NCBI GenBank assembly: GCA_033720975.1 | Contig: JAWWBL010000001.1 | Coordinates: 8,611 to 72,610 of the forward strand | From: Acidimicrobiia bacterium | Lineage (GTDB): Bacteria; Actinomycetota; Acidimicrobiia; Spongiisociales; ZC4RG35 | Direction of reading: 5' to 3' | DNA length: 64,000 bases | Part shown: positions 9,092-56,049 of the stretch, piece after piece | Layout: the number at the start of each line of letters is the position of its first letter | Position numbering within the stretch: position 1 is the first letter of the stretch | Program-made: the position numbers and the translations under genes | Notes under the pieces: model-generated | What the model saw: the letters and a program-made list of their open reading frames with translations, nothing else | Database searches by the model: none | Told to the model about the DNA's origin: nothing

Positions 9092-9462
9092 ACATTCACT
9101 GGGCTGAGACAGTGTCCGACCAATGGGAGGATGTGAGATCCGAGCTCGCCCGTGCGTTCGAGACCAGCCGCTCCGCGGCGCGGAACGAGGAGTCCTTCGT
9201 TTATGTCGTCCACCACGACGACTTGTTGGGCAGGCGGGGCTACGGAAACGCCATGGTTGCCACAGGGCTGCTCTCTGCCGCGAGGACCGCTGCAATCGAA
9301 GGAGCCCGGAAGGGCTGGACCGCAAACGTGATCGCCTTCGACGACGGGGCTGATCGCGAACAGGTCCAGGCCTGGGCCGAACGCGTCGCTGGAGACTCGC
9401 TCGGCGTCACCGGAGAGTTGATCCGGGTCGGGTCAACCCACCTGGGAAAGGCGCTGCCGTGA
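9088..9462 (+). CDS. Small protein resembling a degenerate C-terminal half of an SDR
   Basis: ATGA overlap with the CoA-transferase stop and a 4-nt overlap with the next SDR gene. YGNAMVATGLLSAARTAAIE resembles the SDR catalytic helix but lacks the Lys. Confidence 0.4.
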   Translation: MNIHWAETVSDQWEDVRSELARAFETSRSAARNEESFVYVVHHDDLLGRRGYGNAMVATGLLSAARTAAIEGARKGWTANVIAFDDGADREQVQAWAERVAGDSLGVTGELIRVGSTHLGKALP

Positions 9463-10157
9463 ATGGCTCGATCGTGGTCACTGGCGCGGCGCGCGGCATA
9501 GGAAGGGCGATCTCGAGCCGGCTTGCCGCCAATCCCTCACTCACCGTCATCGGCGTCGACATCTCACCGGACCTGGCGTCAGTCGACGACATCGTCCCGG
9601 TGCAGACGGATCTGACCAATGACGATGGCGTGGACGCAGTGACTAGAACGGTCGAAGAGAGTGGTTCACCGCTTCTGGGCATCGTCAACAACGCTGGCAT
9701 CACCCGGGACGCCAGACTGGTCAACATGACCGACGAGGACTTCGCGGCCGTCCTCGACGTGAACCTCGGAGCTTCCTACCGACTGTCAGATGCCCTGGCG
9801 CCGCTCATGACCGAGGGAGGCTCGATCGTCAACATCGCCTCGCGCGCCTATCTCGGCAACTTCGGCCAGTTCAACTACTCGATGTCGAAGGGCGGATTGG
9901 TCGGCCTCACCAGGGCGATGGCCCTCTCATTGGCGCCCGGCATCAGAGTCAACGCGGTCGCACCCGGGCTGATCGGCACCGAGATGGCCATGGCGATCCC
10001 AGAAGACGTGTTGGACAAGATGGTCGCGGCGATACCCCTGGGGCGAATGGGATCTCCGGACGAGATCGCAAATGTGGTCTGGTTCCTGCTCACCCCCCTC
10101 TCGTCCTACGTCACCGGTCACGTGCTCGTCGTCGGTGGAGGAAGGTCCCTCAGCTAG
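9459..10157 (+). CDS. SDR-family oxidoreductase (FabG-like)
   Basis: TGAARGIGRAI Rossmann motif, NNAG, and an S...Y...K-like catalytic region (SMSKGGLVGL, PGLIGTEM). Confidence 0.85.
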   Translation: MNGSIVVTGAARGIGRAISSRLAANPSLTVIGVDISPDLASVDDIVPVQTDLTNDDGVDAVTRTVEESGSPLLGIVNNAGITRDARLVNMTDEDFAAVLDVNLGASYRLSDALAPLMTEGGSIVNIASRAYLGNFGQFNYSMSKGGLVGLTRAMALSLAPGIRVNAVAPGLIGTEMAMAIPEDVLDKMVAAIPLGRMGSPDEIANVVWFLLTPLSSYVTGHVLVVGGGRSLS

Positions 10158-10603
10158 TAGTAGAGGCGGGAGAGCCGCTCCGCCACCATCGCCGGCTTCT
10201 CCTGGCCCTCGACCTCTGCGATCACCGTCTGTTTCATGTGAATCCCGCCGGGGACCTCACTGACCTCATCGAGCGTCACCCTCATACGGAGCCTCGAGCC
10301 GACCGGGACAGGGGCGGGAAACCTGACCTTGTCGAGGCCGTAATTGACTCCCATCATCGGGTTGCCGACGTCGAGAGGCACCTCGGCGGCCAAGGCGACG
10401 CTCAGGGACAGGGTGAGGAACCCGTGGGCGATCGTGCCGCCAAACGGTGTCTGAGCCGCCAACTCCGGGTTCACATGTATGAATTGATGATCGTCCGTTG
10501 CTTCCGCGAACGCGTCGACCCGCTCCTGGCTGATCTCATGCCAGGCGCTGGCACCTAGCTCCGTGCCGACCAGGCTTTGGAGTCGTTCCAGTACTTCCTT
10601 CAT
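10154..10603 (-). CDS. MaoC-like (R)-specific enoyl-CoA hydratase / hot-dog dehydratase
   Basis: FIHVNPELAAQTPFGGTIAHGFLTLS is the MaoC hot-dog signature. The track ORF runs to 10831, but the domain starts at MKEVLERL, so I trimmed the start to the ATG at 10603. Confidence 0.7.
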   Translation of the reverse strand: MKEVLERLQSLVGTELGASAWHEISQERVDAFAEATDDHQFIHVNPELAAQTPFGGTIAHGFLTLSLSVALAAEVPLDVGNPMMGVNYGLDKVRFPAPVPVGSRLRMRVTLDEVSEVPGGIHMKQTVIAEVEGQEKPAMVAERLSRLYY

Positions 10604-37282: not shown

Positions 37283-37744
37283 GTGTTGCGGCAGGCACAT
37301 CATTCGTACTCTCAGGCCATGGAGGAACGAGGATCTGTCCTGGCCCGCAGGTCGCTCCTGATCATTGGAGTGCTAATGGCTCTTGCTGGCCTTTACATCG
37401 TGGTCCAACCGGTCGATGCCAACGACTTCCAGGGAACCACCGGCGTGGTGTGGTCCGACTTCCAGAATGCCAACCCAGAGCCGGCTGCGTACCTGGAGAG
37501 GGAGGGACGTCTCCTCGGGGTCTCTTTCGCGTTTTTGGGAATCGTGGCGGCCGGGATGTCGGCAACGGTTCTCCGGAGGAACGATCGGAGCGCCTGGATC
37601 GTTGCCTGGTTCCTCCCCTTGACCCTTGCTAGCGCCGCCGCGGTTTTCTTCGGTGGCGACGGTGCGATGCTGGGCGCCTTCTACGCAGTTGCCGCGCTGA
37701 CTGCCGGAACCTTGGTGGCTATCGGAACCCGAACGGCGAGCTAG
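37283..37744 (+). CDS. Hypothetical membrane protein
   Basis: 153-aa ORF with 4 hydrophobic helices. Confidence 0.4.
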   Translation: MLRQAHHSYSQAMEERGSVLARRSLLIIGVLMALAGLYIVVQPVDANDFQGTTGVVWSDFQNANPEPAAYLEREGRLLGVSFAFLGIVAAGMSATVLRRNDRSAWIVAWFLPLTLASAAAVFFGGDGAMLGAFYAVAALTAGTLVAIGTRTAS

Positions 37745-40700
37745 GCCCGAGCCCTTTCGGCCTCCTCGAGTCCCTCGATGTCGTCCAACTGATGCAACAG
37801 TCGGGTCGCGCCAATCCGGGAAGCTGTGGATCTGGCGGCTTCCACTATCTCTGAGAAACGCTGATCCCCCTGATCGACAACCGCAGCAAGGTCGACCCGC
37901 GCTTCGAGCCCCACATACGTCTGGTCATAGCGGTCACAGATCGTCACGGCGGTCGCAAAGTGGTTGGCCGCTTCATCTGGTTCGCCCCTGGCCACGGACA
38001 TGTGCCCCAGGGCTCGAGCTATTCCAGCCTCGGGAAGGCTCCCAGTACCTCGCTCACTACCGTCGATGAGAGCACTGATCCTCTGAGTCTCGCCGAGCGA
38101 GGCGAGCGGTCCCGTCACGTATGGGATAAACATGTCTCGGTGAATGCCGATCGCATCCGATCCGAACCGGTCAGCAAGTGTGAGCATCCGTGACGTGTCG
38201 GCCGACGGAGCGAAGACGGTCACACCGAGCGCAAGGGTTGGACCCAGCGTCTGCTGCTCCCCGGTGCCGGTCGCGAAGGCAATGTGCTCATCCCACTCTC
38301 GACGGACATCCTCTCCCCGAACGAACCTCATCCAGTTCCTTTGAATCCTTATAACCTGACCCGCCTGGCTACCGCCGCGTTCGTCATCCGACCGAATCAG
38401 CTCGTTCGCGAGCGACATGCTCTCGTCCCAGTCACCGGTCCATAGGAGAATCTCCGACTTCGTCAGCTTCGCCCACTCCTCATTGGTGGGCAGGCCGCGC
38501 TCGACCGAGATTGCGAGTGCCTCGTCGATGAGCGGAACCGCCCGAGCGGGCGAACCGACCATGTAGTGGAGCGTGGCGAGATTGTTTCGGATCCGCATCA
38601 TCAGACCGGAGAAGTTGCCCTCATCCGCCATCTGCATGGCGCGCATCATCCCGTCGAAACCCCCATCTCCCTGCCAGTATGAGGAACGGGCTAGGAACTC
38701 GGCCTTATTCTCCGCCGATCCGTGGGCCTCTATCAGTGGGGCAATCCGCTTGCTCTCCGGCAGAGACTCGGCCGTGTCGCCCTTGAGGTCGAGGAGTGTG
38801 TAGCGGTTGAGCATCGCCTGCGCCTTTGCTTGGCTATCAGGCCGGTTTGAGAGAAGGCGGGCCGCCCGGTCCGCCTTCTCGAACGCCTCGTCGACCTCCC
38901 CTCTCCACCAGAGCCAACTCGACATGTCTCCCAACGCGAGGGCTTCGCCCTCGCGATCATCGGCCTCGTGGAACAGCCGAACTGCCTCGTCGAGCAGGCG
39001 CAGCCCGCCATCCACATCGTCCTGGTCAAGCACCCCTATCCATCTGAGGGCCTCGGCTCGGTCCAGTGGGGACATCGCGGCTTCTGCAGCCTTGTGGTAA
39101 TAGGCTATTCCTCGGCGCGGATCTAGCTCCCTTGCGCGCTCAGCGGCCTGCATGAGGGCTCGATAGGCACGCTGCCGGAGCTCCTCATCTGGGTCCTGGG
39201 TAAGGGTTATGGCCTCTCCCAGGTGATAGGCGAGTAGCTCCGATACGTCAACGACTCTCTCTCCGCTGACCGTCTCGATCCATCTGGCTGTCGCCTGGTG
39301 GAGATGTGCCCGGTCGTCTCGGGCCAGACGCCCATAGGCCACGTCCCTCACCAGGGCGTGAACGAACGCATATTCCTCTTGTCCGTGCATCGACGGGTCG
39401 CGTATTGGCCGGATCAGCTCTCGGCGCATCAGCTCACGCAAGGCCCCTCGCGAGTGAGAGGACGGCCTCAGCGCGGCAACCGCGCCCGACCAGAAGACCT
39501 TGCCCACAACTGCCGCAGCTTGAAGAAGGTCCTTCTCCTCACCCTCGAGAAGGTCCAAGCGGGCCCCGATGATGGCCTGGACCGAGTCCGGCAGACCGAG
39601 ATCGCTGATTCGGCCGGCTTCGTCTAGCAAGTTCGCCTCTTCTGCCAGCCGAACGAACTCGGTCACGTAAAGAGGGTTTCCGCCTGCTTTCTCGAGGATC
39701 ATCTGCTGGGAGTCGGCAGGCAGCACAGCCCTCTCGAGAAGTGCGGCAAGAAGCTGAGCGGCGGCGGCGTTGGCCAGCGGGGAGAGCGTCAAAGTTACTG
39801 CGTTCCGAACTCCTCCCCCCCAATCAGGCCGACTCGACAAAAGCTCAGGCCGAGCGGCTGTAACCAGGAGGATCGGCACATCGATCGCCCATTCGGCGAG
39901 ATGCTCCAGGAATTCCAGCAGGGCATCGTCGGCCCAATGAATGTCCTCAACCACCAGCACGAGAGGGTTTTTCTGGGCCATGGCACTGAAGAAACGGAGC
40001 CATGCCGAGAACAGCTCGCCTTGCTCGACGGATTGGTCATCGGTGAAAGTGCCCGCCAAAGGGGAAAGACGTCTCTGCACCCATTCTGCCTGTGCCTCCT
40101 CGGCGATGAGGCTCACCACCGCGTGTCGCAGCTTGCGGCTGGCTTCCTCATCGGAATCAGTCTCCAGGATCCCTGCTTGGGCCTTGACGATCTCACCAAG
40201 GGCCCAAAAGGTGATGCCCTCTCCGTAGGGCAGGCAGCGACCCTGTTTCCACCACAGGACGTCCGGCATCCTGTCGAGGACCGCTTTGAACTCGTGGAGA
40301 AGCCGACTCTTTCCGGAGCCTGGCTCGCCAATGATCGTGATCATCTGGACTGTCGAAGCCGTTTGGGTTCGATGAAGCGAGTCAACCAAGACCGCTAACT
40401 CCCGGTCCCGGCCGACAAACGGGCCCTTGTGGCGCTCCGTGACCGCAACCCCCTGGCGCGCCCTGGCGTGGGTCGCTTGCCAAATCGCAATCCGTGCGGC
40501 CTTTCCTTTCAACTCGACCGATTCGAGGTCGACGAACTCGATGGCGGCTCGGGTCGCCAGGTAGGTGCGCTCATCGACGACTATCCCGCCTTCGGGAGCC
40601 ACCGCCTCGAGCCGGGAAGCAGTATTGACGACATCGCCCACGATCGACTCCCGGTCCTTGTTGTCCGGATCGAGCTGGACGATGGCCTCCCCAGTAGTGA

Positions 40701-41196
40701 CGGCGATGCGCACGGATAGCCCGAGATCAGGCTGAGCCTCGTTGAGGGCGCCAATTTGCTCCTGGATTCGAAGCGCTGCGCGCACAGTGCGCTCCGGGTC
40801 ATCCTCATGGGCGGTGGGTACACCGAACACGGCGAACACACCGTCACCCATGAGCTTTTCGACCTTCCCACCGTGAGCCTCTACCTGCTCACGGACTGTG
40901 CGGTGATACACGGTCAGGCGCGCCCTGACGTCTTCAGGATCGGATCGCTCGGTCCTCGCGGTGAAGCCGGCGAGATCGGCGAACAGCACCGAAACCAGTT
41001 TCTTCTCCTCGGCGGCGCGATGGGCATCGTCAGGCTTGGAGGCGAGAGACTCCCCACAGTTGGCGCAGAACTTCGCACCCGGCGCGGCCTCGGCGCCGCA
41101 GTTGGGGCAGGCGCGGGCCAGTGACGATCCGCAATTCGCACAGAACTTTGCGCCCTCCGCTGCCTCTGCACCACAGGAAGGGCAACTGACATTCAC
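37741..41196 (-). CDS. Multidomain signalling protein: tandem zinc-ribbons + class III adenylate/guanylate cyclase + STAND/AAA NTPase + TPR repeats (1151 aa)
   Basis: N-terminal CPSCG...CANCG x2. Cyclase block SVLFADLAGFTARTE ... KLMGDGVFAVFG. Walker A IIGEPGSGKSRLL and Walker B LVLVVEDIHWAD. The C-terminal ~600 aa are helical TPR-like repeats. Confidence 0.85.
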   Translation of the reverse strand: MNVSCPSCGAEAAEGAKFCANCGSSLARACPNCGAEAAPGAKFCANCGESLASKPDDAHRAAEEKKLVSVLFADLAGFTARTERSDPEDVRARLTVYHRTVREQVEAHGGKVEKLMGDGVFAVFGVPTAHEDDPERTVRAALRIQEQIGALNEAQPDLGLSVRIAVTTGEAIVQLDPDNKDRESIVGDVVNTASRLEAVAPEGGIVVDERTYLATRAAIEFVDLESVELKGKAARIAIWQATHARARQGVAVTERHKGPFVGRDRELAVLVDSLHRTQTASTVQMITIIGEPGSGKSRLLHEFKAVLDRMPDVLWWKQGRCLPYGEGITFWALGEIVKAQAGILETDSDEEASRKLRHAVVSLIAEEAQAEWVQRRLSPLAGTFTDDQSVEQGELFSAWLRFFSAMAQKNPLVLVVEDIHWADDALLEFLEHLAEWAIDVPILLVTAARPELLSSRPDWGGGVRNAVTLTLSPLANAAAAQLLAALLERAVLPADSQQMILEKAGGNPLYVTEFVRLAEEANLLDEAGRISDLGLPDSVQAIIGARLDLLEGEEKDLLQAAAVVGKVFWSGAVAALRPSSHSRGALRELMRRELIRPIRDPSMHGQEEYAFVHALVRDVAYGRLARDDRAHLHQATARWIETVSGERVVDVSELLAYHLGEAITLTQDPDEELRQRAYRALMQAAERARELDPRRGIAYYHKAAEAAMSPLDRAEALRWIGVLDQDDVDGGLRLLDEAVRLFHEADDREGEALALGDMSSWLWWRGEVDEAFEKADRAARLLSNRPDSQAKAQAMLNRYTLLDLKGDTAESLPESKRIAPLIEAHGSAENKAEFLARSSYWQGDGGFDGMMRAMQMADEGNFSGLMMRIRNNLATLHYMVGSPARAVPLIDEALAISVERGLPTNEEWAKLTKSEILLWTGDWDESMSLANELIRSDDERGGSQAGQVIRIQRNWMRFVRGEDVRREWDEHIAFATGTGEQQTLGPTLALGVTVFAPSADTSRMLTLADRFGSDAIGIHRDMFIPYVTGPLASLGETQRISALIDGSERGTGSLPEAGIARALGHMSVARGEPDEAANHFATAVTICDRYDQTYVGLEARVDLAAVVDQGDQRFSEIVEAARSTASRIGATRLLHQLDDIEGLEEAERARA

Positions 41197-41238
41197 TGGA
41201 GAAACTCTAGGGAGCGCCTTCGACGAGACGCCCGGTTC

Positions 41239-41604
41239 TCACGACCGCAGCGCCTTTCGCAGGGCAAAGAGGGCCAGCAGGAACGTGACGCCGATCTTGG
41301 TCACATCGATCAGCGGCTGAACCTCGATTCCAGCCGGGGAGACTCTGATCACAGCCACCGGTCTTCCTTGAGCGCTACCCCCACCGCCGGCGCCAAGCCC
41401 CCGACCATTGTCATCGCCTCCTCCGCCAAAACCGTATCCGCCTGCTCTCTCCCACGCCGCGGCCATGATCACCACCGAGTCACCGACCTTCTCGGGCTCT
41501 GAAAACACGGTGTCGGGTCTGGCCTCGCCGAATATCCCTTTCAGTGCGGCAGCCGCAGCATCACCACCGGCGGCGTAGCCGAGTCCTTCTCTTGCCTCAC
41601 TCAT
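41239..41604 (-). CDS. GerW/YtfJ-family protein
   Basis: EPEKVGDSVVIMAAAWERAGGYGFGGGGD resembles the GerW core. Lies 42 nt upstream of the cyclase-STAND gene on the same strand. Confidence 0.6.
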   Translation of the reverse strand: MSEAREGLGYAAGGDAAAAALKGIFGEARPDTVFSEPEKVGDSVVIMAAAWERAGGYGFGGGGDDNGRGLGAGGGGSAQGRPVAVIRVSPAGIEVQPLIDVTKIGVTFLLALFALRKALRS

Positions 41605-41851
41605 CGTTCAACCTCCTGAGGACGAACATCACAGCGACAGCGATAGCCAATCGGGCTAGCCCTGTGAAGTCATGGATGCGGCGTTTCCGGCCGCCGTGTA
41701 GCTCGATCCACCCTGGACGGCTGTACTCGACTCCGAAGCGGAACCATGGCGTCGACATCGAGACCCCAAAGTGAGCGCTCACCGGCGTCACGGTCAACCC
41801 GGACACAGAGATCGGAACGCTCCTTTGCCTCTCGTTGTGCCACCTGATCAC
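41597..41851 (-). CDS. Small hypothetical protein (84 aa), first gene of the GerW operon
   Basis: 8-nt overlap with the GerW-like start. One hydrophobic C-terminal helix. Confidence 0.3.
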   Translation of the reverse strand: MIRWHNERQRSVPISVSGLTVTPVSAHFGVSMSTPWFRFGVEYSRPGWIELHGGRKRRIHDFTGLARLAIAVAVMFVLRRLNDE

Positions 41852-41888
41852 GTTTCAATCCTACGTTCGACCCGGTAATTTCGGTTAG

Positions 41889-42296
41889 GTGAGAACTGCG
41901 GAGATCACCATCGAGACCGACCGGCACGCAGCAGCCGTCGACCTCACCTCGGACGCCGTTGATTTCTGCCGGGATCAGGGAGACGGGCTGCTCTCGGTGT
42001 ACGTGCCCCATGCCACCGCAGGACTGGCGATATTCGAGACCGGAGCAGGGTCGGACAGGGACGTACTCTCATCGATCGACGAGCTATGGCCCCGCGACAG
42101 GTCCAGGTGGTCTCACGAGCACGGAACGCCGGGTCACGGCCGGGATCACGTGCTGCCGGCATTCATCGCCCCCTCGATCACGATCCCGGTCGTCGGCGGC
42201 GCCATGCAACTCGGAACTTGGCAGTCGCTTGTCTTGATCGACACCAACGTCGACAACCCGATCCGAAAAGTGCGTTTCAGCTTCCTACCCGGTTGA
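41889..42296 (+). CDS. YjbQ/UPF0047-family protein (secondary thiamine-phosphate synthase-like)
   Basis: Carries most conserved UPF0047 blocks: GLLSVYVPHATAGLAI ... HVLPAFIAPSITIPVVGG ... LGTWQSLVLID. Confidence 0.8.
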   Translation: MRTAEITIETDRHAAAVDLTSDAVDFCRDQGDGLLSVYVPHATAGLAIFETGAGSDRDVLSSIDELWPRDRSRWSHEHGTPGHGRDHVLPAFIAPSITIPVVGGAMQLGTWQSLVLIDTNVDNPIRKVRFSFLPG

Positions 42297-42331
42297 GGTC
42301 TGGCCGGTTTGGGATAGCCTTCTCGGTTGCC

Positions 42332-43294
42332 ATGAACAGGCAGCTCTTCCCCCAGAACGTAATCGCCATGATCTGGGACTTCGACAAGACACTTATACCC
42401 GGCAACATGCAGGGACCCCTCTTCCGGCACTACGGGATCGACGAGACCGAGTTCTGGAAAGAGGTGGACGGGCTGGAGGAGTTCTACCGCAGCCGGGGAG
42501 CGAAGCTGATCCAAAGGGACCACCTCTATCTTCACCACATCCTCACCTACGTGCGTGAGGGCCGCATGCCAGGGCTGAGCAACGCACTGCTACGGGAGTT
42601 GGGCGCAGAGATCGAGTTCTACAGCGGAATGCCCGACTACCTGGAGATGGCGCGAAAGGCGATCGAGTCCAACCCCCACTATGCCGAGCACCAGATCCGG
42701 ATTGAGCATTACATCGTGTCAACGGGGCTGCGCGAGATGATCCTTGGATCCTCGGTTGCTCGCCAAATCGAGTTCGTCTGGGCCTGCGAGTTCACCGAGC
42801 AGGTAGCCCCGCCCGATTACGAACTGCACCAGGGTCGGCTCTTCTCACCCGAGGGCGAGATCCGCCAGCTGATCTACACCATCGACAACACCTCGAAGAC
42901 CCGAGCCATCTTCGAGATCAACAAGGGGACCAACAAGAATCCAACCATCGACGTCAACGCCAAGATCGCAAGGGAAGACCGCCGGGTTCCGTTCCAGAAC
43001 ATGATCTACGTCGCGGACGGCCCCTCGGACGTTCCAGTGTTCTCCATCATCAACGAGAACGGCGGTCGGACCTACGCGGTATACCAACCCGGGTCGGAGC
43101 GGCAGTTTCAGCAAGCCGCGCGGCTCCTGGAGCAAAACCGTGTCGACGCTTTCGGGGAGGCCGACTATTCGGAGGGATCACACACCGCGATGTGGCTCCG
43201 CCATGCTGCCGAGACCATCGCGGACCGGATCGTCCAGGACCGCGAGGAAGCGCTCAACGAACGAATGGGTCTCCCACCCCGCCACGTGGAATAA
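42332..43294 (+). CDS. HAD-superfamily hydrolase-like protein (320 aa)
   Basis: Motif I WDFDKTL and motif IV VADGPSDVP. Trimmed from the track ORF 42086.., whose 5' 82 codons overlap yjbQ out of frame. Confidence 0.6.
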   Translation: MNRQLFPQNVIAMIWDFDKTLIPGNMQGPLFRHYGIDETEFWKEVDGLEEFYRSRGAKLIQRDHLYLHHILTYVREGRMPGLSNALLRELGAEIEFYSGMPDYLEMARKAIESNPHYAEHQIRIEHYIVSTGLREMILGSSVARQIEFVWACEFTEQVAPPDYELHQGRLFSPEGEIRQLIYTIDNTSKTRAIFEINKGTNKNPTIDVNAKIAREDRRVPFQNMIYVADGPSDVPVFSIINENGGRTYAVYQPGSERQFQQAARLLEQNRVDAFGEADYSEGSHTAMWLRHAAETIADRIVQDREEALNERMGLPPRHVE

Positions 43295-49021: not shown

Positions 49022-50062
49022 ATGAGACTGTCCAAACTCACCGCGATCGGGATCTCGGCGCTGGCATTGGCCATAGCTGCCTGCTCAGCCGAACAGGCTC
49101 CTGGCACCCTCACCCTGATCGCCCACGACTCTTTCGCCGACGGGGTGACCGAAGACACCTTCGCCGCATTCACAGAAGAGACCGGCATTCGAGTCGAGGT
49201 CCTGGCTGCCGGCGATGCCGGTTCGATGGTCAACCAAGCCGTGCTTTCAAAAGGAAATCCCCTTGCCGACGTCCTGTTCGGAGTCGACGACACCTACCTA
49301 TCTCGGGCTCTCGATGAGGAAATCTTCAGGGTGTACAGGTCCACTGAGGTCGACAAGGTTCATCCGGAGCTGGTCGACACCCAATATCGGGTCACGCCGA
49401 TCGACTACGGCGATGTCTGCATCAACTACGACACGGCATGGTTCGAGTCGACCTCGATCGCGGTTCCGGAGCGTCTGGAAAGTCTGCGTGCCGAGCTCTA
49501 CGCGAGCCACCTGAGCGTGGAGCACCCTGCAACCTCCTCGCCCGGACTGGCCTTCATGTTTGCGACCATTGCCGAATTTGGAGAGGAGGGATGGCTGGAT
49601 TTCTGGGCTGACCTGAGAGATGGCGGTGTTCGCGTGGCATCCGATTGGACTACTGCCTACTACACGGACTTCCTCACACATGGCGGCCCCTCCAGCATGG
49701 TGGTCTCCTACGCGTCCTCGCCGCCAGCCGAGGTGGTTTTCTCGGAGGAGCCGATCGACAGCCCTCCCACGGGTGTGATCGAGGCCGGGTGCTACCGGCA
49801 GGTCGAATATGCCGGGATCCTGGCCGGGACCCAATATCCGGCGGCGGCTGGGAAGCTGATCGACTTCATGCTCTCGCTCGAGTTCCAGGAGCAGATTCCT
49901 CTCTCCTGGTTCGTGTTCCCCGCCAACCAGGACGCCCAGCTCCCATCGGTGTTCGCCGAACACGTCGTGATACCCGACGATCCGGCGCGCCTGTCGCCGG
50001 CCTACATCGCGGAGAACCGGGACCGCTGGATCGATGAATGGATACAGGTGATGGAAGGCTGA
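49022..50062 (+). CDS. thiB: Thiamine ABC transporter substrate-binding lipoprotein
   Basis: Signal peptide/lipobox LAIAACS. Family-1 SBP with thiamine-binding-protein-like blocks (DVLFGVDDTYL). Context is the TPP riboswitch and a ThiP-like permease. Confidence 0.8.
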   Translation: MRLSKLTAIGISALALAIAACSAEQAPGTLTLIAHDSFADGVTEDTFAAFTEETGIRVEVLAAGDAGSMVNQAVLSKGNPLADVLFGVDDTYLSRALDEEIFRVYRSTEVDKVHPELVDTQYRVTPIDYGDVCINYDTAWFESTSIAVPERLESLRAELYASHLSVEHPATSSPGLAFMFATIAEFGEEGWLDFWADLRDGGVRVASDWTTAYYTDFLTHGGPSSMVVSYASSPPAEVVFSEEPIDSPPTGVIEAGCYRQVEYAGILAGTQYPAAAGKLIDFMLSLEFQEQIPLSWFVFPANQDAQLPSVFAEHVVIPDDPARLSPAYIAENRDRWIDEWIQVMEG

Positions 50063-51612
50063 GACGCTCGATACGGTGGGGTTGGGTGGGGGTCGCCACC
50101 GTCCCCGCGCTCTTCGTCGGCTACTTCTTTGCCTACCCGGTCGTCCGGATCCTCGATGTGGGCCTCTCCGAACTGAGCATCGGGGCCTCCGGGCTGCAGG
50201 CACGGCTGCTCAGGGTGGGGTGGTTCACCCTTTGGCAGGCGTCGCTGTCCACCGTCCTGACCCTTCTGGCGGCGACCCCACTCACCTGGGCTGTGTCCTC
50301 ATACGAGTTCAAGGGTCGTCGTCTCGCCACCGCTCTCGTAGCTGTCCCCTTCGTCCTCCCGACGGTGGTGGTCGGCACCGCGTTTCTGTCTCTCGGCTTC
50401 GTCCAATCGATCGGATCGATCCTCGCCGCCCACGTCTTTTTCAACGTGGCGGTCGTGGTGAGAACTGTCTCGTCAGTCTGGTCCAGGATCGACCCTCGGC
50501 TCATCGAAGCTGGCCGAGTCCTCGGCGCCGGCCCCTGGCAGACCTTTCGCCTTGTGACGCTGCCCTTGCTGCGGCCGGCAATCGCCGCGGCGTCTTCGAT
50601 CGTCTTCCTTTTCACATTTACGTCCTTTGGGGTAGTTCTGATCCTCGGTGGCTTCCGCTTCGCCACCTTGGAGGTCGAGATCTATCGGCAAGCCGTGAAC
50701 CTCTTCGACCTTCCTCTGGCTGCTTCGCTGGCGATAGTCCAACTGATCGGGGTCACCACCGCCCTCTACGTCTACTCCCGCTATCAGGAGTCGAGATCGG
50801 CGTCATGGGAAGTTGCCGGTGCCCGCCTCCTCCCAAGGCCTCGGGGAGCAATGAGATGGCTTGTCGGATCGGTGGTGATCGCCAGTCTTACCGTGCTCAT
50901 GGCCCCGTTGATCTCCCTCTTCTCTGACAGCCTGGGCCGAGGGTTCTACACGGGTCTGTTCGGGTCTGATGCGGTGGTCGGCAGCCCGATCGCGTCGGTC
51001 GGTAACAGTCTCCGATTCGCCGCCATCGCCACGCTCATTTCGACAATCGTTGGCCTGATGGCGGCTGCGGCGATATCCGCCCGCCGAGGAACCCTGTCCA
51101 AGTGGTTCGACATGCTCCTGATGCTTCCTCTGGGCACATCAGCGGTGACGATCGGTTTCGGATTCATTGTGGCACTCGATTGGCCTGTGGATCTGCGCGC
51201 ATCGTTCTGGCTGATACCAATCGCGCACGCATTGGTCGCCGTCCCGTTCGTGGTGAGGACAACGCTTCCCACCCTGCGGTCGATCCGCCAAGAGATGCGG
51301 GACGCGGCGGCAGTACTGGGGGCTTCCCCATGGAGGGTGTGGCGGCAGATCGACCTGCCCATCGTGAGTCGAGCAGCCATGGTCGGCTCCGGGTTCGCAT
51401 TTGTCGTCTCTCTCGGTGAGTTCGGAGCGACGTCGTTCGTCGCCCGTCCCAACATCCACACGGTGCCCACCATGATCTTCAGGCTGCTGGGACGTCCCGG
51501 CGAGGTGTCCTTCGGGATGGCCATGGCTCTCTCGGTTCTCCTCGCTGCGATCACCGCTGGTGTCGTCATGTGGCTGGACCGAGCTCGCGTGGGAGAGTTG
51601 GGGAGGTTCTGA
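50038..51612 (+). CDS. thiP: Thiamine ABC transporter permease (two fused permease domains)
   Basis: 12 TM helices. Two EAA-like permease signatures (EAGRVLGAGPWQTFRLVTLP; RDAAAVLGASPWRVWRQIDLP). Confidence 0.85.
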   Translation: MDTGDGRLRRSIRWGWVGVATVPALFVGYFFAYPVVRILDVGLSELSIGASGLQARLLRVGWFTLWQASLSTVLTLLAATPLTWAVSSYEFKGRRLATALVAVPFVLPTVVVGTAFLSLGFVQSIGSILAAHVFFNVAVVVRTVSSVWSRIDPRLIEAGRVLGAGPWQTFRLVTLPLLRPAIAAASSIVFLFTFTSFGVVLILGGFRFATLEVEIYRQAVNLFDLPLAASLAIVQLIGVTTALYVYSRYQESRSASWEVAGARLLPRPRGAMRWLVGSVVIASLTVLMAPLISLFSDSLGRGFYTGLFGSDAVVGSPIASVGNSLRFAAIATLISTIVGLMAAAAISARRGTLSKWFDMLLMLPLGTSAVTIGFGFIVALDWPVDLRASFWLIPIAHALVAVPFVVRTTLPTLRSIRQEMRDAAAVLGASPWRVWRQIDLPIVSRAAMVGSGFAFVVSLGEFGATSFVARPNIHTVPTMIFRLLGRPGEVSFGMAMALSVLLAAITAGVVMWLDRARVGELGRF

Positions 51613-52307
51613 TGCTCGAAATCGACCAGATCGACGTCTCCATCGAGGACACACCAATACTCCGTCAGGCCGACCTGACGGTCGGGAACGGTGAGGTCGT
51701 GGGACTACTGGGACCATCTGGATCGGGGAAGTCGACACTGCTGAGGGCGGTGGCGGGTCTCGTCGACGTGGCGTCGGGTGACATCCGCTGGGATGGCGCA
51801 TCGCTCCTCGATGTGCCTACCCACCGTCGTGGGCTCGGACTCATGTTCCAGGGGTACGCACTTTTCCCTCATCTGGATGTGGCACAAAACGTGGGGTTCG
51901 GGCTGCGCATGCAACGGAACGCGACTCCCGGCCCCCTGATATCCGAGGCTCTCGAGATGGTCGGGCTGGCGGGCTACGAGAATCGAGAGGTCGACTCGCT
52001 CTCGGGCGGGGAGAAACAGCGCGTGGCCCTCGCCCGGACTCTCGCCCCGCAGCCCCGATTCGTGATGCTCGACGAGCCCCTCGGAGCCCTGGACCGAAAC
52101 CTGCGGAGGATGCTGATGACCGAGATGAGGGAGATACTCACCGAGCGAGAGGTCACCGGGATCGTCGTCACCCATGATCGGGACGAGGCGGTTGCCATGG
52201 CCGACCGTTTAGCCCTCATGAGGGAAGGGACCATTGTTCAGACCGGCACTCTGTCAGAGATCCTGGACCGTCCGGCGAACGACTGGGTCCGCGCCTTCGT
52301 CTCCTGA
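51612..52307 (+). CDS. thiQ: ABC transporter ATP-binding protein (thiamine importer ATPase)
   Basis: Walker A GPSGSGKST, signature LSGGEKQRVALAR and Walker B FVMLDEP. Start at the ATG 51612, preceded by GGGAGG. Confidence 0.85.
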   Translation: MLEIDQIDVSIEDTPILRQADLTVGNGEVVGLLGPSGSGKSTLLRAVAGLVDVASGDIRWDGASLLDVPTHRRGLGLMFQGYALFPHLDVAQNVGFGLRMQRNATPGPLISEALEMVGLAGYENREVDSLSGGEKQRVALARTLAPQPRFVMLDEPLGALDRNLRRMLMTEMREILTEREVTGIVVTHDRDEAVAMADRLALMREGTIVQTGTLSEILDRPANDWVRAFVS

Positions 52308-53669: not shown

Positions 53670-54680
53670 ATGAAGGCGTGGCAGCTGACCGACACCAACG
53701 GCATCGACTCCTACGTGCTCAATGACGTGCCCGAGCCCGAACCCGGGCCGGGGGAGGTGAGGGTTGACATCAAGACCGCTGGGCTCAACCACCTCGACAT
53801 CTGGGTGTCGATGGGTCTCCCCGCACCCGAGCACCTTCCACACACCACGGGGGCTGACGCCGCGGGGACCATCGACGCCATTGGCGAGGGTGTCGACGGA
53901 TTCGAGATCGGCGACGAGGTGATAGTCGATCCCTCTCTGTCGTGCGGACGCTGCGAATTCTGTCTCAATGACGACATCGTCTACTGCGAGGACTTCGGGA
54001 TTCTCGGTGAGCACGCCCCGGGAACCTTCACAGAGAAGATCGTGATCCCCACGATCAACGCTGTCAGGAAACCGAAGAGGGTCGAATGGGAGGAAGCCGG
54101 AAGCTTTGGGCTGGCCAATGTCACCGCTCTGCGGAAGCTCGAGAAGGCAAGGCTGAGCAGAGGCGAGGTGGTGCTCGTGGTTGGGATCGGTGGAGGAGTC
54201 GCCACCGCCTCGATGCAACTGGCGATGGCGTTCGGAGCCAAGGTCTACGTCACCTCCCGATCCCAGAAGAAGATCGACTGGGCCGTTGAGAACGGCGCGG
54301 CGGGCGGATTCGACTCGGCCGGCGAGTTCGGCAAAGAGATGGCTGCTCTGGGTGGAGCGGACCTCATCATGGAGAACGTCGGGCCAGCCACCCTCAAGCA
54401 GTCGATGCGGGCTGCCAAGAAGGGGGGACGCATCGCCATCTCAGGTGGGACCAGCGGATCGAGATTCGAGCTCACCATCCCGATCCTGTTCTTCCGCCAA
54501 CTGGAGCTCGTGGGATCGTCCATGGGCAACCATGCCCAGTTCGCCAGGGCCCTCAACTGGATCAGGCTTGGCAAGGCCAAGGCAATAGTCGACCGCGTGT
54601 TCCCCTTCGACCAGCTACCCGAGGCGCTTCGTTATCTGGACTCGGGCGAGCAGATCGGAAAGGTCGTCCTAGCCCGCTAG
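53670..54680 (+). CDS. Zinc-binding alcohol dehydrogenase / quinone oxidoreductase (MDR superfamily)
   Basis: MKAWQL start, GEVRVDIKTAGLNHLD, structural-zinc Cys cluster CGRCEFC, and the Rossmann motif VVLVVGIGGGVATAS. The track ORF beginning at 53136 is a spurious extension overlapping the thioesterase. Confidence 0.8.
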   Translation: MKAWQLTDTNGIDSYVLNDVPEPEPGPGEVRVDIKTAGLNHLDIWVSMGLPAPEHLPHTTGADAAGTIDAIGEGVDGFEIGDEVIVDPSLSCGRCEFCLNDDIVYCEDFGILGEHAPGTFTEKIVIPTINAVRKPKRVEWEEAGSFGLANVTALRKLEKARLSRGEVVLVVGIGGGVATASMQLAMAFGAKVYVTSRSQKKIDWAVENGAAGGFDSAGEFGKEMAALGGADLIMENVGPATLKQSMRAAKKGGRIAISGGTSGSRFELTIPILFFRQLELVGSSMGNHAQFARALNWIRLGKAKAIVDRVFPFDQLPEALRYLDSGEQIGKVVLAR

Positions 54681-56023
54681 TTCAGAGAAGGCGCCTCGAC
54701 CGAGTACAGCTGCCACTCCCCGTCGAAGCCTTTCAAATGGTGGGATCCTCGATCGGCAAAGACGATGTCAGATCCCACGACCAGGTCACGAACCGTCCTA
54801 GAGACCATGATCTGGCCCGGTGCGGCCGCCGACATCACTCTCGACGCCAGGTGCACCGCCACACCTCCGACGTCGTCGCCCCGCACCTCAACCTCGCCCG
54901 CGTGGATACCGGTCCGAAGCGTGACATCGACCCTGGCTATCTCCCGGCTCAAGCTCTCAGCACAGCGGATCGCTCGTCCGGGGCCGTCGAAAATCGCCAA
55001 CGCTCCGTCGCCGGTGCTCTTGACCAATTCGCCGCTGTTGATCTCCACGATTCGTCGCGTGGTCGAGTCGTGCACATCGAGAAGGGCGCGCCACTCGCGG
55101 TCACCCAGTTGCCCGGCACGGCGGGTTGAGTCGACGATGTCGGTGAACATGACCGTCGCCAAACGCCGGTCGGTCACGCCTGGTGACGCTTCGGACCCCA
55201 CGACGAACTTCTCGATGATCGAGAGGACTTCGTCCGGGTGTTCCCAGTACGGAGTGGCGTCCGTGCCTTCGAGCTCGACGAATTCGGCGCCTTCGATGCG
55301 CTCGGCGACGTATCTGCCGAGCTCAATGGGGATCGCAGGATTGTCCTTGACATGGGTGACCAACGTCGGCACCTGGATCGCGGGTAGCAGCGCGCGTGCA
55401 TCGGAACTGAAGTTCTGCTGCATGTAGGCTCGCGCTGCGGCTGGGCTAGCCACCGAGCGCTGGACCTTCGCCATCCAGTTCATGAACGCACGGTCGCCTA
55501 CCTTGCTCGGTATCCAGAGGCTGGCGCCATCAGGTGTGCCCCATGCGTCACCGATCCTCCGGCTCAATTCCTCGACAGCGTCGGCGGGATACCCAATTGG
55601 GTAATCGTCAGTCGCGGAGAGGCGGGCATAGGTGCAATGGAGAACCAGGGAGTGCACTCGTTCTGGGTGATTGGCCGCAAAAAGCAGTGTGGTGGGTCCT
55701 CCATCGCCGCCACCCAAGAGGGTCGCGTTCTCGCTCCCAACGGCGTCCATCACGCATTCAAGCTCCTCGACAAATGACTCCCATGGGGGAAGGGCGTCGA
55801 GTGGGACTGGATCAGAAGCCCCCGAGCCTCGTCTGTCGAAAACGATCGTCCGGCCCAACCGAGACGCCTTCTGATAGAAGAGCCGGATTCCGGGGTCCTC
55901 CCACTCGATGTCGATGGAGCCCCAAAAACCTGCATTTACGACCAGGTCGGGCGGGCCCTCCCCCATCGTCATGTAATAGATGGCCTGATCGCCGAGGCGG
56001 GCGTAACCGGTTAGCGGCTCCAT
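54677..56023 (-). CDS. Alpha/beta-hydrolase domain fused to a class III adenylate/guanylate cyclase domain (LipJ-like architecture)
   Basis: N-terminal alpha/beta hydrolase fold (VFDRRGSGASD). C-terminal cyclase block VMFTDIVDSTRRA ... KSTGDGALAIFDGP. Confidence 0.8.
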   Translation of the reverse strand: MEPLTGYARLGDQAIYYMTMGEGPPDLVVNAGFWGSIDIEWEDPGIRLFYQKASRLGRTIVFDRRGSGASDPVPLDALPPWESFVEELECVMDAVGSENATLLGGGDGGPTTLLFAANHPERVHSLVLHCTYARLSATDDYPIGYPADAVEELSRRIGDAWGTPDGASLWIPSKVGDRAFMNWMAKVQRSVASPAAARAYMQQNFSSDARALLPAIQVPTLVTHVKDNPAIPIELGRYVAERIEGAEFVELEGTDATPYWEHPDEVLSIIEKFVVGSEASPGVTDRRLATVMFTDIVDSTRRAGQLGDREWRALLDVHDSTTRRIVEINSGELVKSTGDGALAIFDGPGRAIRCAESLSREIARVDVTLRTGIHAGEVEVRGDDVGGVAVHLASRVMSAAAPGQIMVSRTVRDLVVGSDIVFADRGSHHLKGFDGEWQLYSVEAPSLN

Positions 56024-56049
56024 GCGGAAAACCCTATCCCCGCTCCCTT

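What the first reader, a model, noticed from the sequence alone, without database searches (positions are those of the whole stretch)
37741..41851. Three-gene operon: small protein, GerW/YtfJ-like protein, and a zinc-ribbon / nucleotide-cyclase / STAND-NTPase / TPR giant
The 1151-aa protein has four parts in order: two CxxC...CxxC zinc ribbons, a class-III cyclase domain, a STAND-type Walker A/B NTPase, and a long TPR array.
- It is related to the mycobacterial cyclase-ATPase regulators but has no LuxR HTH.
- It is preceded on the same strand by a GerW-family protein and an 84-aa ORF, with 42-nt and overlapping junctions respectively.
- Signal-transducing STAND-TPR proteins with enzymatic effector domains also resemble bacterial Avs-type immune sensors.
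I know of no described pairing of a GerW-like protein with a cyclase-STAND protein.
Basis: partly seen in the sequence, partly recalled or inferred. Interest (0 to 1): 0.6.

Follow-up and report, generated by a model that had tools for sequence, protein, structure and literature searches.

The report
Cyclase-STAND sensor with incidental GerW neighbours
The large gene is an ordinary member of a very large, duplicate-rich family of signal-sensing adenylyl cyclases, and the two small genes ahead of it are a separate gene pair with its own promoter that lies next to it in only a few related genomes.

Summary
The sequence-level observation is correct. Three minus-strand ORFs lie at the stated coordinates. 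The 1151-aa protein is double zinc ribbon + class III cyclase + AAA_16/STAND NTPase + TPR array, with no HTH. The 121-aa protein is a divergent GerW/YtfJ-family member.

The "three-gene operon / new pairing" interpretation is not supported.
- The 84-aa ORF plus the GerW-like gene form a conserved two-gene cassette. In all 8 cassette lineages examined it has its own TAGNNT -10 box 6 nt before the start codon.
- The cyclase gene keeps its own conserved TAGAGT box 7-8 nt before its GTG, whether or not the cassette is there.
- Among seven orthologous, syntenic lineages the cassette is present in two and absent in five.
- None of 80 more distant homologue loci has a GerW-like gene within 6 kb.
- Five of seven independent cassette lineages have unrelated neighbours.

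The cyclase keeps all catalytic residues, including an adenylyl-type Lys, so it is probably an active, STAND-gated adenylyl cyclase. Context is housekeeping and there are no defence hits beyond generic cyclase similarity.

Verdict: a new member of a known kind, in an Acidimicrobiia metagenome-assembled genome. Low interest.

The parts
37741..41196 (-). Gene for the 1151-aa DZR / class III cyclase / STAND NTPase / TPR protein (GTG start, stop included)
   Evidence: Orthologues at 68-98% identity in conserved synteny.
41044..41190 (-). Double zinc ribbon, aa 3-51 (C5,C8,C19,C22 / C30,C33,C44,C47)
   Evidence: Pfam DZR E 2e-11; Zn_Ribbon_1 twice, E 4.8e-13. Missing from roughly a third of the close homologues, so it is an accessory module.
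40495..41013 (-). Class III nucleotide cyclase catalytic domain, aa 62-234. D73 and D117 (metal), K113 and S183 (substrate positions), N190, R194.
   Evidence: Pfam Guanylate_cyc E 1.3e-22. PDB alignments to Cya2 2w01 and converted RhGC 5oyh. Invariant columns. Foldseek to CyaB 3r5g, TM 0.85.
39892..40422 (-). P-loop NTPase domain of the STAND core, aa 259-435. Walker A is G289-EPGxGK295-S296; Walker B is around E416-D417.
   Evidence: Pfam AAA_16 E 7e-21; motif residues invariant in A1.
39127..39891 (-). Helical / winged-helix / arm part of the STAND core, aa 436-690 (invariant R448, H612, D617)
   Evidence: AF2 secondary structure. Foldseek alignment of the NOD-TPR region to STAND protein PH0952, 6mfv. 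Boundaries are inferred.
37744..39126 (-). TPR-like helical repeat sensor, aa 691-1151
   Evidence: Pfam TPR_12/TPR_10. Profile hits to LGN/Pins TPRs and to PH0952. AF2 pLDDT around 90.
41204..41209 (-). -10-like box TAGAGT, 7 nt upstream of the large gene's GTG (predicted own promoter, leaderless mRNA)
   Evidence: The same hexamer lies at 7-8 nt in orthologues that lack the cassette (L081, L088, L089) and in those that have it (L091/92). A TANNNT box lies 5-9 nt before the start in 14 of 22 family members, against 0.08% at random anchors.
41239..41604 (-). 121-aa divergent GerW/YtfJ-family protein with a Gly-rich loop and a C-terminal hydrophobic helix
41597..41851 (-). 84-aa conserved small protein (motifs TPWF, Y-x-R-P, D-x-V/x-M-x-A-R, C-terminal hydrophobic helix); first gene of the cassette
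   Evidence: Alignment A3. Homologous ORFs in L087, L090, L095. Annotated as R3258_00270 in the public genome.
41858..41863 (-). -10-like box TAGGAT, 6 nt upstream of the small ORF's GTG (cassette promoter, leaderless)
   Evidence: TAGNNT at exactly 6 nt in all 8 cassette lineages examined.
41612..41617 (-). AGGAGG ribosome-binding site, 7 nt before the GerW-like ATG and inside the end of the small ORF (translational coupling)
   Evidence: Equivalent AGGAG/AGGTG/AGGAT in the other cassettes.
41889..42296 (+). Context marker: divergent UPF0047/YjbQ gene. In orthologues without the cassette it abuts the large gene directly.
   Evidence: Pfam UPF0047 E 5e-21. Gene tables of L081, L088, L089, L090, L094. 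DNA alignments A4 and A5.

Best explanation
The region holds two independent units that are neighbours only in this lineage and one related lineage.

Unit 1: the large gene.
- It is transcribed from its own -10 box as a leaderless mRNA. This is inferred from sequence.
- It encodes a cytoplasmic, signal-gated adenylyl cyclase.
- The C-terminal TPR array is the sensor and autoinhibitor.
- The STAND NTPase core is the ADP/ATP switch.
- Proposed mechanism, inferred by analogy with MalT and PH0952:
  - binding of an unknown ligand or protein opens the core;
  - the core exchanges ADP for ATP and multimerises;
  - multimerisation brings the N-terminal class III cyclase domains into the head-to-tail dimers that this fold needs for catalysis;
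  - cAMP is produced.
- The N-terminal double zinc ribbon is an optional add-on of unknown role.

Unit 2: the small ORF plus the GerW/YtfJ-like gene.
- It is a translationally coupled, leaderless bicistronic cassette, found widely in Acidimicrobiia next to unrelated genes.
- Each protein ends in a hydrophobic helix, so the pair probably forms a membrane-associated complex. Its biochemical function is unknown.

Juxtaposition.
- In this genome the cassette occupies the short divergent intergenic region between the YjbQ gene and the cyclase promoter.
- Read-through into the cyclase gene is possible but not required.
For: Shown here.
- Domain architecture.
- Catalytic residues are conserved. D73, D117, N190 and R194 are invariant and K113 is more than 90% conserved.
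- K113 aligns with the Lys of the ATP-converted RhGC (5oyh) and with the GC-type Glu of Cya2 (2w01).
- Walker A and B residues, R448 and H612 are invariant.
- The NOD-TPR region matches STAND protein PH0952 by profile (E 6e-6) and by Foldseek (762 columns).
- The STAND activation model is taken from PMC6468293.

Independence of the two units.
- Orthologues L089, L081, L088, L093 and L094 keep the YjbQ gene, and the longer contigs (L081, L088, L089) also keep MscS/Sir2 and/or the 153-aa, DLH and SDR genes. All five lack the cassette.
- Only the window and L090-92 carry it.
- DNA alignments show a block of about 670 bp inserted exactly between the YjbQ start and the TAGAGT box.
- 0 of 80 homologue loci have a GerW-like ORF within 6 kb. 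The positive control scored E 4e-48.
- The cassette lies next to a Na/H exchanger, DUF72, an ABC transporter, an ABC-like ATPase and a B12-binding protein in five other lineages.
- Both units have conserved -10 boxes.
- Purifying selection on the large gene: all 158 codon differences from L089 (139 synonymous, 19 non-synonymous) fall in the first 1440 nt.
Against: - No terminator-like site lies in the 42-nt gap, so co-transcription cannot be excluded.
- The arrangement is retained between the window and the L090 lineage despite 18-26% protein divergence.
- In L095-97 the cassette lies directly downstream of a distant cyclase-AAA_16-TPR paralogue on the same strand. This could hint at a loose association.
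- The second substrate-specifying position is Ser183, and the family consensus there is Gly. It is not the canonical Asp or Thr, so ATP specificity is inferred only.
- The promoters are sequence predictions only.
- The ligand, oligomerisation and enzyme activity are untested.
Confidence: 0.75

Rival explanations
1. A true three-gene functional module. The membrane-anchored small/GerW pair is the input (ligand or partner of the TPR sensor) or the output (cAMP-controlled target) of the cyclase-STAND protein, and the three genes are co-transcribed.
For: - Same strand, a 42-nt gap and no terminator-like site.
- The arrangement is shared with the L090-92 lineage.
- A distant cyclase-AAA_16-TPR paralogue sits immediately upstream of the cassette in L095-97. 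That makes 2 of 7 independent cassette lineages with such a neighbour.
Against: - Five of seven syntenic orthologue lineages lack the cassette, while the cyclase protein stays under purifying selection.
- 0 of 80 wider homologue loci carry it.
- Five cassette lineages have unrelated neighbours.
- Each unit has its own conserved -10 box.
- No cNMP-binding domain is found in either small protein.
- The cyclase family is so duplicate-rich that chance adjacency is plausible: 23 of 80 loci have a second long copy within 6 kb.
- Once the window lineage is removed for ascertainment bias, only 1 of 6 cassette lineages has such a neighbour.
Confidence: 0.12
2. An anti-phage sensor of the Avs or Pycsar type. 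The STAND-TPR part recognises a phage protein, and the cyclase makes a nucleotide signal that triggers a membrane effector (the small/GerW proteins).
For: - PADLOC PycC models hit the cyclase domain, best E 2.3e-17.
- STAND-TPR sensors with enzymatic effectors exist among defence systems (PMC13581612).
- The small proteins have hydrophobic helices.
Against: - The PycC hits are no better than the generic Pfam cyclase hit, and no Avs or other STAND defence model matched.
- Neighbours are hydrolases, SDR, MscS, a CobB-like Sir2, acyl-CoA dehydrogenase and YjbQ, in conserved synteny across seven lineages.
- The substrate Lys is of the ATP type.
- The supposed effectors are absent from most orthologous loci and occur alone elsewhere.
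- The family occurs in tandem arrays of many copies per genome.
Confidence: 0.04
3. The cyclase domain is not the output enzyme. It acts only as a dimerisation or regulatory module, and the protein works as a scaffold.
For: - The second specificity position is non-canonical: Ser183, with Gly as family consensus.
- No activity data exist for this clade.
Against: - Both metal Asp, the transition-state Asn and Arg, and the substrate Lys are conserved across 20 diverse homologues at 42-76% identity.
- The fold matches active cyclases at TM 0.83-0.92.
Confidence: 0.08

Closest known systems
Mycobacterium tuberculosis Rv0386 / Rv1358 / Rv2488c (class III cyclase - ATPase - TPR - LuxR HTH)
   Same: The same order of cyclase, AAA_16/MalT-like NTPase and TPR region. 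The architecture is as described in bioRxiv 10.1101/2024.03.06.583649. That preprint ascribes adenylyl-cyclase activity with a guanylyl side activity (Gln-Asn substrate pair) to this group, naming Rv2488c; from my own knowledge (Castro et al. 2005, not read here) the enzyme characterised was Rv0386.
   Different: - No C-terminal HTH here, so the output is the nucleotide only.
- This protein has an N-terminal double zinc ribbon.
- The substrate pair is Lys/Ser rather than Gln/Asn.
STAND NTPases with a TPR sensor: PH0952 (PDB 6mfv) and MalT
   Same: - A NOD plus arm plus TPR sensor.
- Profile hit E 6e-6 and a Foldseek alignment over 762 columns.
- An N-terminal effector, as in PH0952.
- The likely ADP-closed to ATP-open multimerisation switch (PMC6468293).
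   Different: - The effector is an enzyme (cyclase) rather than a DNA-binding domain.
- Sequence identity is about 15%.
- The inducer is unknown.
Stand-alone class III cyclases Cya2 (2w01), CyaB (3r5g) and CyaC (1wc0)
   Same: The catalytic fold and all catalytic residues. E 7e-22 to Cya2, with TM 0.83-0.85.
   Different: - Cya2 has the GC-type Glu where this protein has Lys113.
- These enzymes are regulated by other domains, not by a STAND core.
TIGR03903 TOMM system kinase/cyclase fusion protein
   Same: Shares the cyclase-AAA-TPR region (aa 79-685 against model positions 299-906, E 1e-60).
   Different: - Scores 205 bits against a cut-off of 706.
- No kinase domain and no TOMM cluster nearby, so it is not a member.
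Bacillus subtilis GerW (YtfJ), Pfam PF09579
   Same: The 121-aa protein's family matches PF09579 in 32 of 37 members. It has the Gly-rich loop followed by a conserved RPVAVI beta-hairpin.
   Different: - The Bacillus protein is forespore-specific and soluble, and its function is unresolved (PMC4366231).
- This one is in a non-sporulating Acidimicrobiia lineage.
- It carries a C-terminal hydrophobic helix.
- It is always paired with a small upstream membrane protein.
- The window protein itself is below the Pfam threshold.
Pycsar (PycC cyclase + effector) and Avs defence sensors
   Same: A class III cyclase fold (PycC hits) and the general STAND-TPR logic.
   Different: - No cNMP-binding effector.
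- No defence neighbourhood.
- Conserved housekeeping synteny.
- An ATP-type Lys.
- No Avs model hit.

Membership tests
Class III nucleotide cyclase (Pfam PF00211) | Significant match to the catalytic-domain model | tested here: met
   E 1.3e-22, 80.7 bits against a cut-off of 21.9. Foldseek TM 0.83-0.92 to solved cyclases.
Class III nucleotide cyclase (Pfam PF00211) | Two metal-binding Asp plus the transition-state Asn and Arg | tested here: met
   D73, D117, N190 and R194 are invariant in 20 homologues. Their positions were confirmed against 2w01 and 5oyh.
Adenylyl (versus guanylyl) cyclase | Substrate-specifying Lys + Asp/Thr (AC) versus Glu + Cys/Gly (GC) | tested here: inconclusive
   K113 is AC-type. 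It aligns with the Glu of Cya2 and with the engineered Lys of 5oyh. The second position is Ser183, with Gly as family consensus.
Adenylyl (versus guanylyl) cyclase | Measured cAMP synthesis | not testable with these tools
   Needs an enzyme assay.
STAND NTPase (MalT / PH0952-like, Pfam AAA_16) | P-loop domain with Walker A and B | tested here: met
   AAA_16 E 7e-21. G289, G292, G294, K295, S296, E416 and D417 are invariant.
STAND NTPase (MalT / PH0952-like, Pfam AAA_16) | NBD followed by helical and winged-helix domains, an arm and a repeat sensor | tested here: met
   AF2 model. Foldseek to 6mfv over 762 columns, E 2.6e-9. Profile hit to 6mfv.
STAND NTPase (MalT / PH0952-like, Pfam AAA_16) | Inducer-dependent ADP/ATP exchange and multimerisation | not testable with these tools
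   Inferred from PMC6468293 only.
Mycobacterial cyclase-ATPase-LuxR regulators (Rv0386 group) | C-terminal LuxR/GerE HTH | tested here: not met
   No HTH family at E<=0.1. The TPR-like helices run to the C-terminus.
TOMM kinase/cyclase fusion (TIGR03903) | Score above the curated cut-off; N-terminal kinase domain | tested here: not met
   205 bits against 705.75. The match covers only model positions 299-906.
GerW/YtfJ (PF09579) | Match to the Spore_YtfJ model | tested here: inconclusive
   The window protein scores E 2.2, 9 bits, against a cut-off of 25. However, 32 of 37 close family members match at E<=0.01, best 1.2e-5.
GerW/YtfJ (PF09579) | Forespore-specific expression or a role in spores | not tested
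   The organism is an Acidimicrobiia metagenome-assembled genome. No sporulation genes were seen among the neighbours.
Operon (functional gene cluster) | Gene order conserved at orthologous loci | tested here: not met
   The cassette is present in 2 of 7 syntenic lineages and in 0 of 80 wider loci.
Operon (functional gene cluster) | A single promoter upstream of the first gene only | tested here: not met
   A conserved TAGAGT box lies 7-8 nt before the cyclase start, with or without the cassette. This is a sequence prediction only.
Pycsar / Avs anti-phage systems | A defence-model hit beyond the generic cyclase domain; an adjacent effector with a cNMP-binding domain; a defence-island context | tested here: not met
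   Only PycC hits through the cyclase domain. No CNB domain in the neighbours. Housekeeping synteny.

The most novel reading that the evidence does not exclude
The small-protein + GerW-like cassette has a real but facultative functional link to cyclase-STAND-TPR sensors. It would have been recruited at least twice to different paralogues: upstream of the DZR-bearing orthologue in the window and L090 lineages, and downstream of a DZR-less paralogue in L095-97. One form of the link would be a membrane-anchored partner that the TPR sensor reads. That would give the enigmatic GerW family its first biochemical context.
Probability: 0.1. Interest if true: 0.5.

Novelty: new member of a known kind. 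Interest (0 to 1): 0.2.

Why it matters
Little changes for the cyclase. It joins thousands of uncharacterised 'class 3 adenylate cyclase / AAA ATPase / TPR' proteins of Actinomycetota whose signals are unknown.

Three by-products are useful.
- The apparent operon is shown to be an accidental juxtaposition, so it should not seed a 'GerW-cyclase system'.
- GerW/YtfJ-like proteins of non-sporulating Acidimicrobiia always travel with a conserved ~85-aa membrane protein as a leaderless bicistron. This is a concrete lead for a family whose function is unresolved even in Bacillus.
- Both gene families show a very regular TANNNT-N6-8-start arrangement. That pattern can help gene-start and promoter annotation in this class.

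Tried and rejected
- **Metagenome scan with the GerW alignment.** The Gly-rich patterns matched junk and returned one short locus, so it gave no neighbourhood statistics.
- **Homologue search with the 84-aa protein.** The word index found only the protein itself. Homology had to be shown from the loci instead.
- **Matching contig lengths between the two hit lists as a proxy for co-location.**
  - P0123 and P0112 both list a longest contig of 433,661 bp, but the ±6 kb around P0123 (L082) holds no cyclase gene.
  - P0170 and P0042 both list 7,732 bp, but the P0170 contig encodes no 1156-aa protein.
- **Mobile-element hallmarks around the cassette.** No boundary direct or inverted repeats were found.
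- **Classical sigma-70 consensus scan.** It found no promoter in the region. The -10-only leaderless pattern appeared only through comparison with other loci.
- **L089 as a 'same-strain' control.** This was rejected once the 98% protein identity proved to be a mosaic. Identity is 84-93% in the first 1440 nt and 100% afterwards.
- **Literature.** No paper linking GerW/YtfJ to cyclases or STAND proteins was found.


Full report
**1. What is in the sequence**

Three ORFs lie on the minus strand at exactly the stated coordinates:
- 37741..41196, 1151 aa, GTG start;
- 41239..41604, 121 aa;
- 41597..41851, 84 aa, GTG start.

The stop of the 121-aa ORF and the start of the large ORF are 42 nt apart. 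The two small ORFs overlap by 8 nt, with an AGGAGG site 7 nt before the downstream ATG.

The public protein identical to the 121-aa ORF is 'R3258_00265 [Acidimicrobiia bacterium]', on a 157-kb contig of a metagenome-assembled genome. The organism is therefore an uncultured member of class Acidimicrobiia, with about 62% G+C.

**2. The large protein**

Pfam gives:
- two zinc ribbons / DZR at aa 3-51;
- Guanylate_cyc at aa 62-234 (E 1.3e-22);
- AAA_16 at aa 259-435 (E 7e-21);
- TPR_12 and TPR_10 just above threshold;
- no HTH.

AlphaFold2 on a 20-sequence alignment gives mean pLDDT 78.8, with about 90 across aa 690-1150. The model is a cyclase fold, a P-loop/helical core and an uninterrupted helical-repeat solenoid that runs to the C-terminus.

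Foldseek places the cyclase domain on CyaB, Cya2, CyaC, Rv1900c and Ma1120 at TM 0.75-0.92. It aligns the remainder over 762 columns to PH0952 (6mfv), the solved STAND NTPase with a TPR sensor. A profile of the family also hits 6mfv at E 6e-6.

Catalytic residues across 20 homologues at 42-76% identity:
- D73 and D117 (metal), N190 and R194 are invariant;
- K113 is more than 90% conserved.

In the HMMER alignments:
- K113 sits opposite the GC-type Glu of Cya2 (2w01);
- K113 also sits opposite the Lys engineered into the ATP-converted rhodopsin cyclase (5oyh);
- the second specificity position is Ser183, opposite the engineered Asp of 5oyh and the Gly of Cya2;
- the family consensus at that position is Gly.

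The enzyme is therefore not a pseudo-cyclase. It is most likely an adenylyl cyclase, though specificity is an inference.

The Walker A residues G289 to K295-S296, the Walker B residues E416-D417, R448 and H612 are invariant. This fits a working STAND switch.

**3. How common is this protein?**

It is very common.
- 7992 of the 8000 scored candidates were significant. The best hits are full-length Acidimicrobiia proteins, which JGI names 'class 3 adenylate cyclase/TPR repeat protein'.
- In 23 of the 80 loci kept, at least one further long homologue lies within 6 kb, and some loci hold tandem arrays of four.
- About a third of the close homologues lack the zinc ribbons.

**4. The two small genes**

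The 121-aa protein alone is below the Pfam threshold for Spore_YtfJ (E 2.2). It nevertheless belongs to a tight family:
- 188 hits, at 44-74% identity;
- 32 of 37 sampled members match PF09579 at E<=0.01;
- the alignment shows the Gly-rich loop, the invariant RPVA motif and a C-terminal hydrophobic helix;
- the AF2 model gives pLDDT 77.

No solved structure resembles it, by sequence or by fold.

The 84-aa ORF has no family hit. It is nevertheless clearly a gene. A homologous 83-92-aa ORF overlaps the start of the GerW-like gene in L082, L083, L085, L086, L087, L090/91 and L095-97. The copy in L087 had not been called as a gene. These ORFs share N-terminal residues, the motifs TPWF, Y-R-R-P-x-R-V-E and D-H-V-M-x-A-R, and a hydrophobic tail.

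**5. Is it an operon with the cyclase?**

Three lines of evidence say no.

(a) Orthologous loci. Seven lineages carry an orthologue of the large gene with the UPF0047/YjbQ gene divergent upstream. On the longer contigs (L081, L088, L089) MscS/Sir2 and/or the 153-aa, DLH and SDR genes are also conserved.

| Lineage | Identity of large protein to window | Cassette |
|---|---|---|
| window | - | present |
| L090-92 | 82% over 476 aa (GerW-like 74%) | present |
| L089 | 98.4% | absent |
| L081 | 76% | absent |
| L088 | 75% | absent |
| L093 | 72% | absent |
| L094 | 68% | absent |

DNA alignments show the cassette as a block of about 670 bp. It lies between the YjbQ start codon and a conserved CCTAGAGT motif just before the cyclase start. 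No flanking repeats mark it as a mobile element.

(b) Wider homologues. An HMM of the GerW-like family finds no ORF at E<=1e-3 in 80 loci (33-63% identity, ±6 kb). The best score was E 0.15. The positive control in the window scored 4e-48.

(c) The reciprocal view.
- In five other cassette lineages the flanking genes are all different: a Na/H exchanger, DUF72, an ABC transporter, an ABC-like ATPase and a B12-binding protein.
- One further lineage (L095-97) does have a cyclase-AAA_16-TPR gene next to the cassette. That gene is a distant, DZR-less paralogue (HMM score 332 against about 1800 for orthologues), and it lies upstream of the cassette rather than downstream.
- Given the copy number of this family, and after removing the window lineage for ascertainment bias, one neighbour in six lineages is compatible with chance. 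I keep a facultative link as the 'novel case' at 10%.

**6. Promoter anatomy**

- TAGAGT lies 7-8 nt before the GTG of the large gene in the window, L081, L088, L089 and L091/92. The box is there whether or not the cassette is present.
- Among 22 homologues with a mapped N-terminus, 14 have a TANNNT box 5-9 nt before an in-frame start codon. The rate at random anchors is 0.08%.
- Every cassette has TAGNNT exactly 6 nt before the small ORF's start codon.

By established knowledge of actinobacterial transcription, a -10 box this close to the start codon implies a leaderless mRNA. I therefore read the region as two leaderless units: a bicistron (small + GerW-like, translationally coupled) and a monocistron (the cyclase).

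These are sequence predictions. No terminator-like site separates the units, so read-through is possible.

**7. Defence reading**

- PADLOC returns only PycC models, through the cyclase domain. The best is E 2e-17, weaker than the generic Pfam hit. Nothing of the Avs or other STAND type matched.
- Neighbours are hydrolases, SDRs, MscS, a 258-aa CobB-like Sir2, acyl-CoA dehydrogenase and YjbQ. They are in conserved synteny.
- The large gene is under purifying selection. All 158 codon differences from L089 (139 synonymous, 19 non-synonymous) fall in the first 1440 nt, the part that is not 100% identical.

None of this looks like a defence island.

**8. Mechanism, with status of each step**

Shown here:
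- the architecture;
- intact catalytic and NTPase motifs;
- structural similarity to PH0952.

Inferred from the MalT/PH0952 paradigm (PMC6468293) and from the dimer requirement of class III cyclases (established knowledge):
- in the resting state the TPR sensor and arm lock an ADP-bound closed core;
- an unknown inducer releases the lock;
- ATP binding drives multimerisation;
- the N-terminal cyclase domains are brought together as active dimers;
- cAMP rises.

Unknown:
- the inducer;
- the role of the zinc ribbons;
- the cAMP receptors.

For the cassette I can only propose a membrane-associated heteromer. Even Bacillus GerW has no established function (PMC4366231).

**9. Comparison and novelty**

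- The protein works like the mycobacterial Rv0386 group but lacks their defining LuxR HTH, so it is not a member of that group.
- It fails the TIGR03903 cut-off.
- It is a member of the class III cyclases and of the AAA_16/MalT-PH0952-like STANDs.
- I found no paper describing a GerW-cyclase link. The data here say there is none to describe.

Verdict: a new member of a known kind. The pairing is incidental. Interest 0.2.

Noticed in passing
window 37741..39756 versus L089 5441..7456 (continuing into the 153-aa gene, 37283..37744): The window and L089 are 84-93% identical over the first 1440 nt of the large gene. They are 100% identical over the remaining 2016 nt, and 97% in the next gene. Flanking genes are 78-87% identical. 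This is either a very recent recombination tract between two Acidimicrobiia populations or a chimeric metagenome assembly.
   Followed up: partly
window 41889..42296 (+) and 42086..43294 (+): A UPF0047/YjbQ gene (E 5e-21) is hidden under the 5' end of a mechanically longer 402-aa ORF. The real downstream gene is probably about 322 aa, starting near 42326, as in the gene calls of L081, L088 and L089.
   Followed up: yes
window 54680..56047 (-): A second class III cyclase lies in the window: a 456-aa alpha/beta-hydrolase + Guanylate_cyc fusion with the architecture of LipJ/Rv1900c.
   Followed up: partly
L044, L045, L050, L062, L078, L079 and others: Cyclase-AAA_16-TPR genes often occur as tandem same-strand arrays of 2-4 copies in Actinomycetota metagenome-assembled genomes. 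23 of 80 loci have an extra long copy within 6 kb.
   Followed up: partly
L086 3658..4575 and 8413..10366: In one Acidimicrobiia genome the small + GerW-like cassette lies among defence- or toxin-type genes (CAP12-PCTIR TIR-domain protein, Fic, AbiEi). This was not seen in the other cassette loci.
   Followed up: no
window 50001..52000: A strong negative AT skew (-0.239), compared with |0.14| or less elsewhere in the window. It coincides with a 524-aa plus-strand ORF at 50038..51612.
   Followed up: no
window 37741..37744: The large gene and the convergent 153-aa gene (weak YwiC-like membrane protein) overlap by 4 nt at their 3' ends. This convergent pair is conserved in L081, L088 and L089.
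   Followed up: partly
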